A DNA stretch of 4,655 nucleotides, taken from the IMG/VR virus record IMGVR_UViG_2671180458_000007. One strand, given 5' to 3'. Under the pieces are notes generated by a model. The model ran no database searches, had not been told where the DNA came from, and was given only the letters and a program-made list of their open reading frames with translations. The DNA comes from a virus. Its lineage: Duplodnaviria; Heunggongvirae; Uroviricota; Caudoviricetes. Below are positions 1 through 4,655 of this stretch, piece by piece (within the stretch, counting starts at the first letter, position 1; each line of letters starts with the position of its first letter). A program made the position numbers and the translations under genes.

Positions 1-310
1 ATTTTGCGTTATCGGGAATATCGGGAAGTGACCGCCGCAGCCGTTCCGGCTTCGTCCACTGGTAAGTATTTTTCGCGCTCTCCCTCCGTTGTTGAGAACG
101 GCGGCGGTATGCCAGCAACGCAAGGACGCATGTTCGTATGTTGCACATATCCACGCCGTTAAGCTCAATACCATCACGGCGCATCACCTCAGCAACCACA
201 CGCGCATAATTTTCGGCGGTCACGCTGTCCGGCTGCGTGGCCTGTTCGTCAGCCTGCTGGCTGATTCCGGCGACGCGGCGGATTAATCCCAGTATTTCGG
301 CTTCTGTCAT
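1..310 (-). CDS. Hypothetical protein, partial (N-terminal 103 aa in window; 3' end lies beyond the left edge)
   Basis: ATG is the reverse complement of 308-310 and the frame stays open to position 1 (begins MTEAEILGLIRRVAGISQQADEQ...). A G-rich Shine-Dalgarno-like GGGGG sits 4-9 nt upstream. It follows the terminator and promoter cassette downstream of the capsid gene. No recognisable motif; lying downstream of a capsid gene it could be a head-tail connector or adaptor, but that is speculation. It is not in the supplied ORF track because it has no stop inside the window. Confidence 0.5.
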   Translation of the reverse strand, partial: MTEAEILGLIRRVAGISQQADEQATQPDSVTAENYARVVAEVMRRDGIELNGVDMCNIRTCVLALLAYRRRSQQRRESAKNTYQWTKPERLRRSLPDIPDNAK

Positions 311-463
311 TGTGCCCCCATCGCGCTGGTGAAGAAAACAAGCTCAGATTTTTTGTAAAGAATCTGTCACGCTAAAAGATGTCGAACAAAAATTAACCAC
401 AACCATCATCTTTTTTGCATCAACCACATTAAAAACAACAGGTTACACACATGATGATGATGA

Positions 464-561
464 CGATAAAATCACAAAAATGCGCTTTTTTCCGCGCCGC
501 CCGCCCCGTGTTCATACCCACCCCACCGGGAGGACCCGCAAAAAAGGCGGCTGGTGCCGCC
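464..561. repeat. Copy A of a ~100 bp conserved intergenic cassette (second copy at 3001-3098)
   Basis: By-eye alignment: aaaaatgcgcttttttccgcgccgcccgccccgtgt...cccaccccaccgggaggacccgcaaaaaag (A) against aaaaaatgcgcctttttccgcgccctcccgccccgtgt...cccaccccaccaggaggacccgcaaaaaag (B). Both copies sit immediately 3' of a minus-strand stop codon and end in a terminator hairpin. Confidence 0.7.
538..561 (-). terminator. Rho-independent terminator after the protease-capsid gene
   Basis: On the minus strand: GGCGGC-ACCA-GCCGCC hairpin (6-bp GC stem, 4-nt loop) followed by TTTTTTG, starting 6 nt after the TGA stop at 568-570. Confidence 0.7.
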
Positions 562-567
562 TTGTTG

Positions 568-2457
568 TCAGAGTGAATCTGTCCCGCCTGATTTGACCAT
601 ACCGCGATAATCCAGAGCTGCCACACCTGCATCAATACGGACTTTCCAGGCCACGCCGTCAACGATAAAACCTTCCTGCTGTTCAAGGTAAGGCTCGTCA
701 TTGCCATCAAGATAAGCCACCTCGATTGTGTCCGTTCCCTGTGCGGAAAGCATGTACCATTGTTTTTCGCTGATATCATCAAGGCGGGGATCGACGATGA
801 TATCAAGTAGCTTGTGGTACGGGTTAAAGATCCCGCTGTTTTTATCAGCCCCGAAAGGTGCGGTTGAGTTAATCATCTGCAACGCGCGATCTTCCAGTGC
901 TGCCGGAACTAAAAGGAATTTAGGCGCAATATTCAGCACTTCGCCATTTTTGTCCTTCTGTGTGCGCATCAGGTGACGTGCTGCACTAAGTCCCGGTGTT
1001 GTCAGTCCTGCTTCAATCAGGTTGCTGTGTTTTTTGTCAAACAGCGTTATTCCGTCAGAAAGTTTTACGTTGCCTGTAAGCACCAGATTAACCAGATTTC
1101 CCACCGTTCTTGATGCTGCACGGCCCATAGCCATTGGCACCGTTGATAACTGATCAAGGTCATCATTGATTATCGCCTGGCGGGTAATGCTGAAAATATT
1201 CCCGTAAGTAGCCAGCGCGATGGGTTCACCGCGATCGCTGGTGGTGATGTATTTATATTCTGCCCCTTCCGGAACTTTGTTTAACGTTGAGAAGCCATTC
1301 ATACCAACGCGGCGGGCTTCCCGGAAGTTTGAAAGGGAACCTTTTTTCGTCCACTGGCGGAATGTTTCGCCGCTGTGCTCCCAGCCTGCAAGCACTGATT
1401 TTTCAGCGCCACCAGCAAGGATATCGGTAAAATCGCTGCTGCTGTGGGTGAATGCCGCGTTTACTATCTGCGAGCGTGTGCTGTAGCTGCCCGTGCTTAT
1501 ACCACGATGGGTTAATGATGCCTGTGCCATATCGAAAAGGCTCATCATGGCGTAAGGATTACCGCGTTCGGCCCGTTCGTGACCAAGACGCGCATTAAGC
1601 CCCTGACGCATGGCATCGCCAGTTATATTGCCGTTATCCGTGTACGCGTAGTAAAGATTTGCGGGGGTGGTTTTGTTTGTTGGCGTTGATTCTTTACCCA
1701 TAGCGAGTAAAAGGCGTTCGCGTGCATTCTCAACGCTACATTCTGAATCCGCAAGACAACTTATAGCCAGGTCGTTATATCTTCCGTTGAAGGTGCCAAA
1801 CAATTCACGGATGCCGTTAAGTCGTTCCTGTTCGCCACTGCCAGTTTTCTGGCTGATCATGCTTTTAATTTTTTCCGGCATATTTGAAAAATCTCCGATT
1901 CGTTTTGATTCAATTCGGGCCATTGCTGTAATCGCGGGTATAACCTCATCTGCGAAACCGTTAGCCTTACACTCATTGCCATCCATCCAGGTTTCCGCCT
2001 CCATCATGGAGGTGATTTCCTGTTTGCTCCTGCCCGTTCTTCCGGCATAGGTTTCTGCCATCGTGTCGCCCAGCTTGTCCATCAGATCAGCAAAGCGGCG
2101 AACGTCGCCCGACACTCCGGCAGTAACACCACGGGGGGCATGTATCATCATCATCGCGTTTTCAGGCATAACGATATGATCTCCACACATGGCAATAAAC
2201 GAGGCCATAGAAGCCGCCATGCCTTCAATGTGTACGATTTTTTTTGCCGGATGATTTTTCAGAGCGTTATAGATAGCCAGCCCTTCAAAGATGTCGCCAC
2301 CAGGTGAATGGATGCGAAGATGGATTTCAGACGCATTACCACACGCGTTGATCTCGTCAGTAAGTGCCGATGCTTTTACACCGTACCCGCCGATCTCGTC
2401 ATAAATGCGCACATAGACAACATCTGCCATAGCCTTAATGGAAAACCATGTTTTCAT
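568..2457 (-). CDS. Prohead protease / major capsid fusion protein: N-terminal ClpP-family (S14) serine protease domain, linker or scaffold-like region, C-terminal putative major capsid domain (629 aa)
   Basis: Long intact ORF. The N-terminal ~190 aa carry ClpP signatures visible in the translation: HSPGGDIFEGLAIYNAL (ClpP INSPGG...AG.AIYD motif), GMAASMASFIA (active-site Ser motif G.AASMG), MMIHAPRG (active-site His motif MIHQP). The remaining ~430 aa are too long for a protease alone. Assigning them to a capsid domain rests on known ClpP-type prohead protease-capsid fusions in prophages, not on a motif I can verify by eye. ATG at 2455-2457 is preceded by AGGGG about 7 nt upstream and overlaps the upstream ORF stop (ATGA). 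Confidence 0.85.
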   Translation of the reverse strand: MKTWFSIKAMADVVYVRIYDEIGGYGVKASALTDEINACGNASEIHLRIHSPGGDIFEGLAIYNALKNHPAKKIVHIEGMAASMASFIAMCGDHIVMPENAMMMIHAPRGVTAGVSGDVRRFADLMDKLGDTMAETYAGRTGRSKQEITSMMEAETWMDGNECKANGFADEVIPAITAMARIESKRIGDFSNMPEKIKSMISQKTGSGEQERLNGIRELFGTFNGRYNDLAISCLADSECSVENARERLLLAMGKESTPTNKTTPANLYYAYTDNGNITGDAMRQGLNARLGHERAERGNPYAMMSLFDMAQASLTHRGISTGSYSTRSQIVNAAFTHSSSDFTDILAGGAEKSVLAGWEHSGETFRQWTKKGSLSNFREARRVGMNGFSTLNKVPEGAEYKYITTSDRGEPIALATYGNIFSITRQAIINDDLDQLSTVPMAMGRAASRTVGNLVNLVLTGNVKLSDGITLFDKKHSNLIEAGLTTPGLSAARHLMRTQKDKNGEVLNIAPKFLLVPAALEDRALQMINSTAPFGADKNSGIFNPYHKLLDIIVDPRLDDISEKQWYMLSAQGTDTIEVAYLDGNDEPYLEQQEGFIVDGVAWKVRIDAGVAALDYRGMVKSGGTDSL

Positions 2458-2648
2458 AGCCAGACCCCTAACGTTGCCCTGTACCAGTATTCAACCGCGC
2501 TGCGTGTGATTTGTCCTTTCGTGGGTACTGGCATACCCGGGTGATTATCTTTGATGAACTGCTGATAGCGTTCGATCTTCTCCATAGTTCCGGCGTCTAT
2601 GTGTACCGTGGCACTTTTATCCGGCTTTCTGGTGTTGTTCTCTGGCAT
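2454..2648 (-). CDS. Small hypothetical protein (64 aa), translationally coupled to the protease-capsid gene
   Basis: The ORF track gives 2454..2681 (75 aa, MMPVNQ...), but that start has no Shine-Dalgarno. The internal ATG at 2646-2648 (MPENNTRKPDKSATVHIDAGT...) has GGAGG (reverse complement of 2656-2660) 7 nt upstream, so I prefer it. The TGA stop overlaps the capsid ATG (ATGA at 2454-2457). Function unknown. Confidence 0.6.
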   Translation of the reverse strand: MPENNTRKPDKSATVHIDAGTMEKIERYQQFIKDNHPGMPVPTKGQITRSAVEYWYRATLGVWL

Positions 2649-2722
2649 AAATCCGCCTCCGTTTTGATTAACGGGCATCATTATTGATCGATAAAAGTAA
2701 TAGATAAATCATTTTCTACCTG

Positions 2723-2750
2723 AAAATCAGATTATGATTTTTCTGATTAT
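2723..2750. promoter_or_regulatory. Inverted repeat, candidate operator in the leader of the capsid operon
   Basis: aaaatcaga (2723-2731) and tctgattat (2742-2750) form 8/9 inverted arms around a 10-nt AT-rich spacer, 75-100 bp upstream of the small-ORF start. Confidence 0.35.
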
Positions 2751-2843
2751 TCTCAGAGAGGCAAAGTTATTGACGCATTTTTGCCATTGAAGCAGTATTA
2801 AGACTCGTCATCCTGGCGATAAAAACTCCTTTGTCGTGTAAAA

Positions 2844-2879
2844 GCGCCTCCGGTAACAGCAATCGGGGGCGCTTTTTTT
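2844..2879 (+). terminator. Terminator-like hairpin plus U-tract, oriented on the plus strand, inside the capsid-operon upstream region
   Basis: Plus strand: GCGCCUCCG (2844-2852), 11-nt loop, CGGGGGCGC (2864-2872) gives a 9-bp stem with one G-U pair, followed by TTTTTTT (2873-2879). On the minus strand the same hairpin is followed by only TTTT. No convincing plus-strand gene ends here. Confidence 0.5.
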
Positions 2880-2903
2880 GCGCCTGTTTTTTGTAAATGT
2901 TTT

Positions 2904-2917
2904 CGGGAACGTTCCGG
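2904..2917. promoter_or_regulatory. Palindrome cGGGAACGTTCCgG, candidate dimeric regulator binding site
   Basis: Perfect 10-bp palindrome GGAACGTTCC at 2906-2915 with partly symmetric flanks. It lies in the promoter region between the upstream terminator (3076-3098) and the capsid operon and is absent from the otherwise similar region A. Confidence 0.35.
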
Positions 2918-3000
2918 TGATGAACAAAAAACAACCTGATTCGACACTAAAAATTTTTATTTCTCAACATATCAATAACTTATAGTGGTGGTGATGGTGC

Positions 3001-3098
3001 CATAAAAATCAAAAAATGCGCCTTTTTCCGCGCCCTCCCGCCCCGTGTACAGGCCCACCCCACCAGGAGGACCCGCAAAAAAGCCGGATTGCTCCGGC
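3001..3098. repeat. Copy B of the ~100 bp conserved intergenic cassette (first copy at 464-561)
   Basis: See copy A. It sits immediately 3' of the stop of the 3106-3378 gene and ends in a terminator hairpin. Confidence 0.7.
3076..3098 (-). terminator. Rho-independent terminator after the small regulator-like gene
   Basis: On the minus strand: GCCGGA-GCAA-TCCGGC hairpin followed by TTTTTTG, 8 nt after the TAA stop at 3106-3108. Confidence 0.7.
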
Positions 3099-3105
3099 TG
3101 TGTGA

Positions 3106-3378
3106 TTAGCTGTCCTGGTAATTGCGCCATATTTCATCACCAGCACCATCTATACCCATTTCGGCACAAGTGCGATTAACTGCATTTCTCAGGTCTCCGA
3201 AATTATCAGGCGGCTCCGGTGGCCTCTGTGCCTTCCTGGAACATTCCAGCCGTCGCATCGTGATGTGATGCCGTTCCTTGTCTGTCTCCACCAGCATCAT
3301 GACTTCACCCCATCGCGCCGCCGCCCTCCGGTAAAATCCTTTCGCTTCGAGTTCTTCCGCTATGCGGTCATGTACCAT
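3106..3378 (-). CDS. Small basic protein (~90 aa), possible PerC-like transcriptional regulator
   Basis: The ORF track gives 3106..3498 (130 aa), but that start overlaps the ssb 3' end by ~110 nt. The internal ATG at 3376-3378 (MVHDRIAEELEAKGFYRRAAARWGEVMMLVETDKERHHITMRRLECSRKAQRPPEPPD...) lies 10 nt after the ssb stop and has GAGGGGG 5-6 nt upstream. The PerC-like call rests on recalled resemblance of the N-terminal region and is unverified. Confidence 0.55.
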   Translation of the reverse strand: MVHDRIAEELEAKGFYRRAAARWGEVMMLVETDKERHHITMRRLECSRKAQRPPEPPDNFGDLRNAVNRTCAEMGIDGAGDEIWRNYQDS

Positions 3379-4041: not shown

Positions 4042-4085
4042 AGGCTTTATCTCACAGCAGTAAATTAAAATTTTTGCGTTTTAAC

Positions 4086-4314
4086 CCTTCACCTGTTCAC
4101 CTTTTGATATTTTATCTTTTAATTCATAATGTTAAGGGGTGAACAGTTTCACAAAAACTATTCACCAACTATTCACCACTGTTCACCCTTGAAGCTCAAT
4201 AAACAATCAAAAAGGTGAACAGTGAATAGTTTGGTGAACAGTTCATAAATAACTGTTCACCCTATAATATACTGATATAAAAGATATTTATGACAGAGTG
4301 AACAGTGGTGAACA
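4086..4314. repeat. Iteron array: ~11 copies of TGTTCACC/GGTGAACA (P4 type I iteron sequence) with AT-rich flanks; candidate crr- or ori-like cis replication site
   Basis: Exact or one-mismatch octamers at 4086, 4094, 4159, 4170, 4180, 4254 (TGTTCACC orientation) and 4138, 4214, 4222, 4233, 4297, 4307 (GGTGAACA orientation). Several are spaced 10-11 bp apart. Two ~50 bp imperfect direct repeats (4138-4188 and 4214-4262) each run from GGTGAACAGT to CTGTTCACCC. AT-rich stretches at 4101-4136 and 4262-4296. The array ends 15 bp from the stop of the flanking gene. Confidence 0.8.
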
Positions 4315-4328
4315 GTTATTCCATAAGT

Positions 4329-4655
4329 TTAATTTTTGCTATCGTCATTAGTGACCGATACACATGACGGCATCCAGTCTTCTGATTCCTCCGTCAGTTT
4401 CACGTTTGAACGCAAACCGTGCTTCGTTTTCCGTTTCATATACTCCCTGCCATATTCCGCCATTGCCCCCGGCATATCTTTACCGAAGCGCGTCAGTGTT
4501 ACAGGTTTACCAAACCCATGTGCCTTCATATAAGCCAGATAGGCATGATAGAGATACCTGCGCGGGCTGAATGGCACAATTTCAGCATTACCCACTAACA
4601 GGCCATCACACATTACCGACGACATGAGATAGCCGCAGAAGTCCACCAGCGAATC
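4329..4655 (-). CDS. C-terminal part of a replication protein, probably a P4 alpha-like primase/helicase (partial; 5' end beyond the right edge)
   Basis: The minus-strand frame is open from the window edge (…DSLVDFCGYLMSSVMCDGLLVG...) to TAA at 4329-4331. The first start codon in the window is a GTG, so the real start is presumably upstream of the window. The identity is inferred from context: in P4 the alpha gene is immediately followed by the crr iteron region that its C-terminal domain binds. No primase motif is visible in this fragment. Confidence 0.6.
   Translation of the reverse strand, partial: DSLVDFCGYLMSSVMCDGLLVGNAEIVPFSPRRYLYHAYLAYMKAHGFGKPVTLTRFGKDMPGAMAEYGREYMKRKTKHGLRSNVKLTEESEDWMPSCVSVTNDDSKN

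What the first reader, a model, noticed from the sequence alone, without database searches (positions are those of the whole stretch)
2844..2879. Strong terminator-like hairpin oriented against the surrounding genes: candidate small RNA 3' end or attenuator
A 9-bp GC-rich stem followed by seven T residues reads as an intrinsic terminator on the plus strand, but no plus-strand protein gene ends here. It lies in the 5' leader of the minus-strand capsid operon. It may terminate a short plus-strand RNA from the 2700-2840 region, antisense to the capsid-operon leader, or act as a weaker minus-strand attenuator (only four T residues on that side). A possible -35 TTGACG at 2770-2775 exists but with poor spacing to any -10, so the promoter is not established.
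Basis: seen in the sequence. Interest (0 to 1): 0.5.

Follow-up and report, generated by a model that had tools for sequence, protein, structure and literature searches.

The report
Terminator of a small satellite RNA
The hairpin is a real transcription stop signal on the strand opposite all the genes of an E. coli phage satellite (a PICI), and it most likely ends an unannotated RNA of about 75 bases whose core matches, in antisense, the ribosome-binding site of the helper phage's head-protein gene.

Summary
A 9-bp GC-rich stem (2844-2852/2864-2872) plus T7 (2873-2879) folds far better than shuffles on the + strand and scores as an intrinsic terminator there, but not on the gene (-) strand.

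The window is a Gram-negative PICI related to EcCICFT073. The hairpin lies between a lambda-type cos site (about 2885-3081) and the likely capsid-operon promoter, so it is not in the operon leader.

Related PICI families carry different hairpins at the same boundary, with the long T-run again on the antisense strand. In EcCICFT073 this hairpin sits back to back with the early-operon terminator.

In four diverged family-A variants the antisense T-run, a TTGAC -35 core, the 17-bp spacing and a CAnnAT -10 persist. The sense-strand T-run decays.

Best reading: it terminates a ~75-nt divergent small RNA (about 2805-2879).

A 12-nt core of that RNA (2826-2837) is perfectly complementary to the Shine-Dalgarno region of the helper phage's prohead protease/capsid gene. 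Families B and B2 carry a relic of the helper decoration-gene start in the same place. An anti-helper antisense function is therefore possible but unproven. I found no expression data.

The parts
2844..2872 (+). Terminator stem-loop: GCGCCTCCG / CGGGGGCGC with one G.U pair and a 7-11 nt loop.
   Evidence: The stem is unchanged in most of 23 distinct family-A sequences. The loop varies. One G-to-A polymorphism breaks a pair in 4 loci.
2873..2879 (+). T7 tract, the U-tail of the + strand RNA.
   Evidence: It is T6-T8 in all family-A variants. The equivalent sense-strand run is only T4 and decays to TTTG.
2867..2892 (+). Overlapping second hairpin (GGCGC-T7-GCGCC) followed by T6. It could act as a back-up + strand terminator at the edge of the cos module.
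   Evidence: In L222 GCGCC becomes GTGCC, which keeps pairing as G.U only in + strand RNA. Weak evidence.
2770..2798 (+). Candidate sigma-70 promoter of the small RNA: -35 TTGACG (2770-2775), 17-bp spacer, -10 CAGTAT (2793-2798).
   Evidence: Best + strand PWM hit in the intergenic region, in the top 0.06% of window positions (the PWM was approximated from memory). TTGAC, the spacing and CAnnAT are kept in 4 diverged variants. The stricter consensus scan did not call it.
2805..2879 (+). Predicted small RNA of about 73-78 nt. The start is inferred from the -10 position.
   Evidence: Conservation pattern: conserved +1 block TAAGACTC, variable middle, invariant TTTGTCG, conserved terminator. No Rfam family matches.
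2826..2837 (+). CTCCTTTGTCGT, a core perfectly complementary to ACGACAAAGGAG. That sequence is the Shine-Dalgarno region of the helper phage prohead protease/capsid fusion gene.
   Evidence: It is the best of 28 translation-start regions for all four RNA variants (12, 12, 10 and 8 nt). Shuffles give P(>=12 nt) = 0.0024.
2680..2764 (-). Region holding the candidate capsid-operon promoters (TTGCCT-16-AAAAAT at 2764-2737; TTTATC-17-AATAAT at 2708-2680) and inverted repeats.
   Evidence: The TTTATC...AATAAT block is shared with family C. None is verified.
2885..3081 (-). Lambda-type cos site (cosQ/cosN/cosB), copy 2, immediately next to the hairpin.
   Evidence: It aligns to the junction of the lambda genome ends. 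The same module lies between the lysis genes and Nu1-like terS in lambdoid prophages.
3076..3099 (-). T1, the sense-strand intrinsic terminator ending the replication/PerC operon (AGCCGGAGCAATCCGGCT + T6).
345..561 (-). cos copy 1 (about 345-545) with its own upstream sense terminator (546-561 plus T6 at 540-545), after the capsid gene.
568..2648 (-). Capsid operon: a 64-aa ORF (2454-2648, or 75 aa from 2681) and the ClpP-like prohead protease/major capsid fusion gene (568-2457).

Best explanation
The hairpin is the Rho-independent terminator of a short transcription unit on the + strand. That unit runs divergently from the capsid operon of a Gram-negative phage-inducible chromosomal island (PICI).

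RNA polymerase would start about 2805 from the promoter TTGACG-17-CAGTAT (2770-2798) and stop at the U7 tail (2873-2879). The product is an RNA of about 75 nt. Its 3' end faces the satellite's cos site and, beyond that, the terminator of the replication/PerC operon.

Shown:
- the hairpin and its strand asymmetry;
- its position;
- a functionally equivalent hairpin at the same module boundary in other PICI families;
- the conservation pattern of the promoter, the core and the terminator.

Inferred:
- that the promoter fires and the RNA accumulates;
- as a further and less certain step (about 0.3), that the RNA pairs through CUCCUUUGUCGU (2826-2837) with the Shine-Dalgarno region of the helper phage's prohead protease/capsid mRNA. 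That would lower translation of the helper protein, while the satellite's own copy, with a different start region, escapes.
For: Structure and strand:
- Fold z is -4.5 on the + strand against -1.8 on the - strand.
- The terminator score is +33 against -18.

Context:
- All genes are on the - strand.
- The element is an EcCICFT073-like PICI (PMC6092414, PMC10111431).

Other families:
- Family B (L004, ATCC 25922), family B2 (L143) and EcCICFT073 (L219) have unrelated hairpin sequences at the same place. Each has A6-A7 on the gene strand, which is T6-T7 on the antisense strand, and only T4-T5 in the sense direction. Antisense scores are positive and sense scores negative.
- In EcCICFT073 the early-operon terminator and this hairpin are 6 nt apart and convergent, with no cos between them. 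That is the layout expected for two facing transcription units.

Diverged family-A variants (L220, L138, L222):
- They keep T7-T8, TTGAC, the 17-bp spacing, CAnnAT, the TAAGNCTC start block and TTTGTCG.
- They change 13 of 18 positions in the middle and 8 of 17 in the spacer, and lose the sense T-run.

Geometry: the best antisense promoter candidates in families A and B predict RNAs of 77-80 nt.

Target:
- The 12-nt perfect complement to the helper gpC-like start region is the top hit among 28 start regions for all four variants. Shuffles give P = 0.0024.
- Duplex energies are -27.5, -24.9 and -29.5 against null bests of about -17 to -20.
- Phages carrying this start region occur in both lambdoid cos clusters, including the cluster that resembles the satellite's cos copy 2.

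Parallel in family B2: the segment next to the terminator matches a phage decoration-gene (D) start at 21 of 25 positions. The local score is 30 against shuffles of 17.4 +/- 2.0.
Against: - No transcript, 5' end or 3' end data were found for any of these elements.
- The -10 is weak (3-4 of 6 matches), and the stricter consensus scan did not call the promoter. My position weight matrix was approximated from memory.
- In EcCICFT073 the family-B -10 candidate reads AATGTT, and in B2 the -35 is poor.
- Within families the hairpin is nearly invariant, so there is no compensatory covariation. One polymorphism (G to A in the 3' arm, 4 loci) breaks a pair in the + strand RNA.
- A 5' stem-loop seen in three variants is not kept in the fourth.
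- Family C satellites have the same type of capsid gene but no such unit. They carry a sense-oriented terminator instead, so the RNA is dispensable.
- As an unrestricted local alignment, the 12-mer match to the phage is within chance (score 24 against 19.9 +/- 2.2).
- Family-B RNAs pair with the D start no better than shuffles.
- Some family-B satellites carry cos sites of phages that appear to have a fused protease/capsid head module. These were not checked for a separate D gene.
- The similarity to helper gene starts could be a decayed relic with no function.
Confidence: 0.55

Rival explanations
1. Insulator only. The hairpin stops stray + strand (antisense) transcription coming from the capsid regulatory region or from further downstream. 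This keeps polymerases out of the cos site and the replication/PerC operon. Any short RNA made is a by-product with no function.
For: The same structural evidence applies. The hairpin sits back to back with the early-operon terminator in EcCICFT073. In the window family the cos site is flanked by terminators that point at it from both sides. Host genes next to the late end of these islands are convergent with the island genes. Family C does without the unit.
Against: It does not explain why a promoter-like TTGAC-17-CAnnAT and the TTTGTCG block are kept in diverged variants while their surroundings change. It does not explain why the RNA body resembles helper gene starts in two families.
Confidence: 0.25
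2. Non-functional relic. The hairpin and the adjacent helper-like start sequences are leftovers of the recombination events that brought phage head genes and cos into the satellite.
For: The hairpin sits exactly at a module junction. The family-B segment looks like a decayed D gene start plus an internal D fragment. Family C carries a terS 5' remnant at the same junction.
Against: Three unrelated hairpin sequences all keep a long antisense T-run at the same boundary. The hairpin and T-run are among the best-conserved parts of a region where only 62% of alignment columns are invariant.
Confidence: 0.12
3. Sense-strand element. It is a second, weak terminator or attenuator for - strand transcripts that read through the terminator after PerC, or a leader structure of the capsid mRNA.
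For: An A-tract lies upstream and T4 downstream on the - strand, so some bidirectional activity is possible. Family C has a sense-oriented terminator at the equivalent junction.
Against: The sense score is negative in families A, B and B2. There is a C.A mismatch in the sense RNA. The sense T-run decays to TTTG in L220, L138 and L222. No strong - strand promoter candidate lies upstream within the phage-derived cos module: the consensus scan calls none, and the PWM gives only candidates lacking a consensus -10.
Confidence: 0.08

Closest known systems
Canonical Rho-independent (intrinsic) terminators of E. coli, including terminators of Hfq-type small RNAs
   Same: A GC-rich 9-bp stem, a short loop and 7 U directly after the stem. 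A long U-tail is typical of Hfq-binding small RNAs (established knowledge).
   Different: It points against every annotated gene of the element. No 3' end has been mapped.
Short antisense RNAs of temperate phages and satellites: lambda OOP (77 nt), P22 Sar, P4 CI / P1 C4
   Same: An RNA of about 70-80 nt from its own promoter, ending at an intrinsic terminator, encoded in a mobile element, and acting by base pairing near a ribosome-binding site (from my own knowledge of these systems).
   Different: Those RNAs act on transcripts of their own element: they either overlap the target gene or are processed from a leader. Here the proposed target is in another genome, the helper phage, and pairing would rest on a 12-nt core. 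There is no sequence or Rfam similarity.
EcCICFT073 and related Gram-negative PICIs (PMC6092414, PMC6739421, PMC10111431)
   Same: The gene order is int, alpA-like HTH, icd-like, primase, ssb, PerC, then capsid genes. There are two cos sites. The element can insert in tRNA genes or inside helper late genes.
   Different: The papers I could read describe no RNA gene or terminator at this boundary. Known interference is protein-based (Rpp binding TerS).
Prophage-encoded small RNAs of pathogenic E. coli (Esr41, AgvB, AsxR, Pas RNAs)
   Same: Small RNAs with intrinsic terminators, encoded in intergenic regions of mobile elements (PMC5286369; bioRxiv 10.64898/2026.05.13.724894).
   Different: Esr41 is in SpLE1 and the Pas RNAs are in lambdoid prophage regions. 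None of these Rfam families matches the window. This element is present in only 144-152 of 5426 genomes.
Rfam ctRNA_p42d (RF00489)
   Same: A hairpin plus U-run gives a 23-bit alignment.
   Different: That is far below the gathering score of 50. It resembles a generic terminator only.

Membership tests
Intrinsic (Rho-independent) terminator, + strand | GC-rich stem of 5-14 bp with a short loop | tested here: met
   A 9-bp stem with 8 G-C pairs and 1 G.U pair, and a 7-11 nt loop. The hairpin alone folds at -19.2 kcal/mol.
Intrinsic (Rho-independent) terminator, + strand | U-rich tract directly after the stem | tested here: met
   T7 at 2873-2879, and T6-T8 in all variants.
Intrinsic (Rho-independent) terminator, + strand | A transcript arrives on that strand and ends there | not testable with these tools
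   There is only a predicted promoter. No RNA data were found.
Bidirectional terminator / - strand attenuator | A competent U-tract and stem in the - strand direction | tested here: not met
   The sense score is -18. There is a C.A mismatch. T4 decays to TTTG in three diverged variants.
Leader attenuator of the capsid operon | Located between the operon's promoter and its first gene | tested here: inconclusive
   The best-scoring - strand promoter candidates lie downstream of the hairpin (2764-2680). Upstream is phage-derived cos DNA, where the PWM gives only candidates lacking a consensus -10. No start site has been mapped.
Independent small-RNA gene | Own promoter with conserved -35, -10 and spacing | tested here: inconclusive
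   TTGAC(G/C/T)-17-CA(G/A/C)(T/A)AT is kept in 4 diverged variants. The -10 is weak and the consensus scan does not call the promoter.
Independent small-RNA gene | Conserved functional blocks separated by variable linkers | tested here: met
   Invariant positions: +1 block 11 of 13, middle 5 of 18, TTTGTCG 7 of 7, T-tract 7 of 7.
Independent small-RNA gene | Structure supported by compensatory changes | tested here: inconclusive
   There are only 3-4 distinct variants. The terminator stem hardly varies, and the 5' stem-loop is not kept in L222.
Trans-acting antisense RNA against a helper gene | Seed complementarity to a translation-start region beyond chance | tested here: inconclusive
   A 12-nt perfect match is best of 28 start regions, with shuffle P = 0.0024. 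As a free local alignment it is not significant.
Trans-acting antisense RNA against a helper gene | Regulation of the target; chaperone binding | not testable with these tools
   This needs reporter assays and Hfq or ProQ co-purification.
Lambda-type cos site (for the adjacent repeat) | cosN-like sequence with a conserved upstream block and the same position as in lambdoid phages | tested here: met
   It aligns to the junction of the lambda genome ends (CGGGTCCT..CCGGTG..ACG|GGGCGG). In prophages the module lies between the lysis genes and Nu1-like terS. Function was shown for the two cos sites of EcCICFT073 (PMC6092414), not for this element.
Rfam ctRNA_p42d (RF00489) | Score at or above the gathering threshold (50 bits) | tested here: not met
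   23 bits, E = 0.13.

The most novel reading that the evidence does not exclude
Phage satellites of the EcCICFT073 group carry, at the upstream edge of their capsid module, a diverged copy of the 5' end of a helper-phage head gene. In family A this is the prohead protease/capsid gene. In families B and B2 it is the decoration gene D. The copy is placed between an outward-facing promoter and a terminator, so that it is transcribed in antisense. The resulting ~75-80-nt RNA pairs with the Shine-Dalgarno and start region of the helper's head-gene mRNA and lowers its translation. The satellite's own head gene has a different start region and is spared. This would be an RNA-based way for a satellite to interfere with its helper, or to substitute its own capsid protein.
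Probability: 0.3. Interest if true: 0.8.

Novelty: new member of a known kind. Interest (0 to 1): 0.5.

Why it matters
As a terminator the hairpin is ordinary. It does, however, point to an unannotated transcription unit in a widespread class of E. coli phage satellites whose late-gene regulation is largely unknown.

If the RNA exists, it would be, to my knowledge, the first small RNA assigned to a Gram-negative PICI. If it also silences the helper's head-protein gene, it would add an RNA mechanism to satellite-helper interference, which so far is described as protein-based (Rpp, capsid-size redirection, CapR). It might also help explain why many of these satellites carry a capsid gene that is not needed for transfer (PMC6092414).

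The proposal is directly testable with a Northern blot and a two-plasmid reporter.

Tried and rejected
- **Rfam, permissive threshold, on the window and on the EcCICFT073 late region.** Nothing credible was found.
- **Known EHEC/EPEC small RNAs.** Esr41 is in SpLE1. The Pas RNAs lie in lambdoid prophage contexts with a different distribution. The family-A element occurs in only 144-152 genomes, and neither Sakai nor EDL933 was among the 60 records listed, so published EHEC sRNA lists could not be matched to this locus.
- **Species-representative genome collection.** One DNA-pattern scan and one protein scan both found nothing.
- **Reaching distant relatives through the small ORF.** The alignment was too divergent to use, and the protein search gave only 6 close E. 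coli proteins.
- **Small + strand protein gene.** There is only an 18-codon ORF without a Shine-Dalgarno sequence, and no ORF of 20 aa or more ends at the hairpin. The short sense-strand ORFs after the hairpin are not conserved in length or sequence.
- **Dispersed REP-like repeat.** Rejected.
- **Part of cos.** Rejected, because EcCICFT073 has the hairpin without an adjacent cos, and phages have cos without the hairpin.
- **Conserved 5' stem-loop in the RNA.** Present in three variants and lost in L222, so not claimed.
- **First duplex scan with long windows.** It did not discriminate between targets. It was replaced by contiguous-match and short-window scans.
- **Back-to-back geometry of the sense and antisense -35 boxes.** A 5-bp gap is seen in families A, B and B2. 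I treat this as weak, because the family-A sense -10 is not kept in L138.
- **Search for further family-A variants in viral contigs.** It returned the same four classes plus spurious GC-rich hits.
- **Literature searches for transcript data on EcCICFT073.** Nothing was found.

Full report
**1. The observation**

The sequence shows a 9-bp stem (2844-2852 with 2864-2872; eight G-C pairs and one T.G wobble). It can be extended by two weak pairs, has a 7-nt loop, and is followed by seven T (2873-2879).

- As + strand RNA the segment folds at -27.1 kcal/mol, against -15.2 +/- 2.6 for shuffles (z -4.5; none of 200 as good).
- The opposite strand folds at -18.1 kcal/mol (z -1.8), because the wobble becomes a C.A mismatch.
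- A classical terminator score (formula recalled from memory) is +33 for the + strand and -18 for the - strand. The two undisputed sense-strand terminators of the element score +15 and +31 in their own direction.
- No + strand ORF ends here, and there is no tRNA.
- The sequence is confined to this element, in 144 of 5426 E. coli genomes.

**2. What the window is**

The window is 99% identical to a chromosomal island of E. coli JNEC-KY174, inserted next to tRNA-Pro/yejM. Its genes are integrase, an HTH regulator, an Icd-like protein, primase, SSB, PerC, a 64-aa ORF, a ClpP-like prohead protease/major capsid fusion, and a 93-aa ORF. The core genes are on one strand, the - strand of the window; only a small YlcI/YnfO-family ORF in the regulatory region lies on the other.

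In O157 strains the same island sits inside the large-terminase gene of a lambdoid prophage. That is the helper-embedded PICI arrangement described in PMC10111431. The gene order is that of the Gram-negative PICIs typified by EcCICFT073 (PMC6092414).

**3. The neighbourhood: two cos sites**

A repeat of about 110-260 nt (452-562 and 2989-3099) follows the stop codons of the capsid gene and of perC. The same module lies between the lysis genes and the Nu1-like small-terminase gene in lambdoid prophages. It aligns with the junction of the lambda genome ends: CGGGTCCT..CCGGTG..ACG|GGGCGG.

These are therefore two lambda-type cos sites. EcCICFT073 is already known to have two functional cos sites (PMC6092414). 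Each copy is preceded on the gene strand by a proper sense terminator.

The hairpin in question starts a few bases after the distal end of cos copy 2. In phages the terS gene begins at that point, and there is no hairpin.

**4. The hairpin belongs to the capsid-module boundary, not to cos**

| PICI family | Example | Hairpin on the gene strand |
|---|---|---|
| B | ATCC 25922, L004 | AAAAAAGCCCGATAAGG...CTTATCGGGCTTTT |
| B2 | L143 | AAAAAAGCCCGATAAGT...ACTTAGCGGGCTTTTT |
| B | EcCICFT073, L219 | same as family B, with A7 |

These sequences are unrelated to the window's hairpin. All have the long run on the antisense side, with positive antisense scores and negative sense scores.

In EcCICFT073 the early-operon terminator and this hairpin are only 6 nt apart and face each other, with no cos between them. 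That is the usual picture of two convergent transcription units.

Family C (L121) differs. There the cos module includes a 5' remnant of a phage terS gene, and it is followed by a purely sense-oriented terminator.

**5. Which strand matters**

The more diverged family-A variants are L220/L221, L138 and L222. In them the gene-strand T-run shrinks from TTTT to TTTG, while the antisense run stays at T7-T8. This argues against the attenuator idea and against a second terminator for the early operon.

All candidate capsid promoters lie downstream of the hairpin in the gene direction. The hairpin is therefore probably not in the operon leader.

**6. What ends at the hairpin**

It has a -10, CAGTAT, exactly 17 bp away (the weight matrix was approximated from memory, and the stricter scan does not call the promoter).

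Across the four diverged variants the -35 reads TTGAC(G/C/T), the spacer stays at 17 bp although 8 of its 17 positions vary, and the -10 reads CAGTAT, CAATAT or CACAAT.

Conservation downstream of the promoter, as invariant positions:

| Block | Invariant positions |
|---|---|
| Start block TAAGACTCGTCAT | 11 of 13 |
| Middle | 5 of 18 |
| TTTGTCG | 7 of 7 |
| T-tract | 7 of 7 |

The terminator stem is also kept. This is the pattern of a small-RNA gene of about 75 nt (2805-2879).

In families B and B2 the best antisense candidates predict RNAs of 77-80 nt, but their hexamers are less well kept.

Structural covariation could not be shown. There are too few variants, and a 5' stem-loop is not universal. 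One polymorphism weakens the stem in 4 loci. No Rfam family matches, and I found no expression data.

**7. A possible function**

The invariant block and its neighbours, CTCCTTTGTCGT (2826-2837), are perfectly complementary to ACGACAAAGGAG. That 12-mer lies in the Shine-Dalgarno region upstream of a GTG start of the prohead protease/capsid fusion gene of O157-type lambdoid phages. One such phage is the prophage in which the O157 copy of the island is embedded.

- Among 28 translation-start regions of that composite, it is the longest match for all four RNA variants: 12, 12, 10 and 8 nt, with next-best matches of 6-8 nt.
- Shuffled RNAs reach 12 nt in 0.24% of trials.
- Short-window duplex energies are -27.5, -24.9 and -29.5 kcal/mol, against null bests of -17 to -20. 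The fourth variant is not significant.
- The island's own protease/capsid gene has a different start region.
- Phages with other versions of this start region (GTGATAAAGGAGG and others) are not matched.

In family B2 the segment next to the terminator matches the start of a phage decoration gene (D) at 21 of 25 positions. The local alignment score is 30, against 17.4 +/- 2.0 for shuffles. The family-B version resembles the D start of the CFT073 helper, plus an internal D fragment.

In two families, then, the body of the predicted RNA looks like a diverged, inverted copy of a helper head-gene 5' end.

Caveats:
- As a free alignment the 12-mer is within chance.
- Family-B pairing energies are not better than shuffles.
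- Some islands combine this module with cos sites of phages whose head module appears to be the fused protease/capsid type.
- A decayed relic would give the same similarity.

I put the antisense function at about 0.3.

**8. Verdict**

The hairpin is real and is a + strand intrinsic terminator.

| Reading | Confidence |
|---|---|
| Terminator of a short divergent RNA gene at the capsid-module boundary of a PICI | 0.55 |
| Plain insulator against antisense transcription | 0.25 |
| Relic without function | 0.12 |
| Sense-strand attenuator | 0.08 |

It is a new member of a known kind. The more novel reading, an RNA directed against the helper's head gene, is open and easy to test.

Noticed in passing
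window 345-561 and 2885-3099: Two lambda-type cos sites lie in direct orientation, about 2.5 kb apart, flanking the capsid operon. Each is preceded by a sense-strand terminator. Two functional cos sites are already published for EcCICFT073, where one copy is inverted (L219 about 2510-2600 and 3290-3340).
   Followed up: yes
window 4090-4330: A dense array of direct and inverted GGTGAACAG(T) repeats lies downstream of the primase gene. It is probably the island's replication origin (iterons). The weak miRNA-family hits in Rfam there are artefacts of these repeats.
   Followed up: partly
window 3106-3378: A PerC-family regulator gene lies between ssb and the terminator/cos. It is absent from the O157 copy of the island (L002), where ssb is followed directly by the terminator and cos.
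   Followed up: partly
L002 9663-21003: In O157 strain FDAARGOS_293 the island is inserted in, and co-oriented with, the large-terminase gene of a lambdoid prophage. This is a helper-embedded PICI as described in PMC10111431.
   Followed up: partly
window 29-310; L121 1576-1857; L219 3374-3655: A conserved 93-aa ORF (phrog_1561, unknown function) ends every island examined. In the window it directly follows cos copy 1, at the position of terS. In family C it follows a DUF1441 Nu1-like terS. In EcCICFT073 it follows the inverted cos.
   Followed up: no
window 2454-2648; L121 4513-4722; L219 463-669: A small ORF of 64-69 aa precedes the capsid gene in families A, B and C. The three versions are 22-33% identical with the same pattern of conserved residues. 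Its function is unknown (phrog_4934 and phrog_3255).
   Followed up: partly
L219 401-427: In family B (EcCICFT073) a strong candidate capsid promoter (TTGCTC-16-TATAAT; TTGCAC in L004) is followed at once by the palindrome CTGGATGAACATCCAG. This fits CTG-N10-CAG, the outline of a LexA box, and would parallel LexA control of SaPI operon I.
   Followed up: no
L002 6832-6894; L005 1673-1735; L003 1683: The phage protease/capsid fusion gene is annotated from an ATG in L002 and L005. An in-frame GTG 45 nt upstream has a much better Shine-Dalgarno sequence (AAGGAGG plus 6 nt), and the equivalent GTG is used as the start in L003. The upstream start is probably the real one.
   Followed up: partly
L121 4820-4900: Family C islands keep the first codons of a phage terS gene after cos. 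A sense-oriented terminator (GCCGGATTCTCTCCGGC + T6) follows, placed just before the capsid regulatory region. A strong promoter-like site (TTGCAA-18-TAAATT), shared with the phage, lies about 80 nt upstream of it.
   Followed up: partly
L133, about 4070-4500: A viral contig has two cos cores in inverted orientation about 300 nt apart. Only the second has a GC hairpin next to it on its cosQ side. This is unexplained: it could be a junction of two elements or an assembly artefact.
   Followed up: no
window 2720-2760: AT-rich repeats (TCAGATTATGATTTT / TCTGATTATTCTCAGA, and an inverted repeat AAAATCA...TGATTTT) overlap the candidate capsid promoter. They may be an operator for an unknown regulator. 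The motif ATAATCAGA is shared with family B.
   Followed up: no
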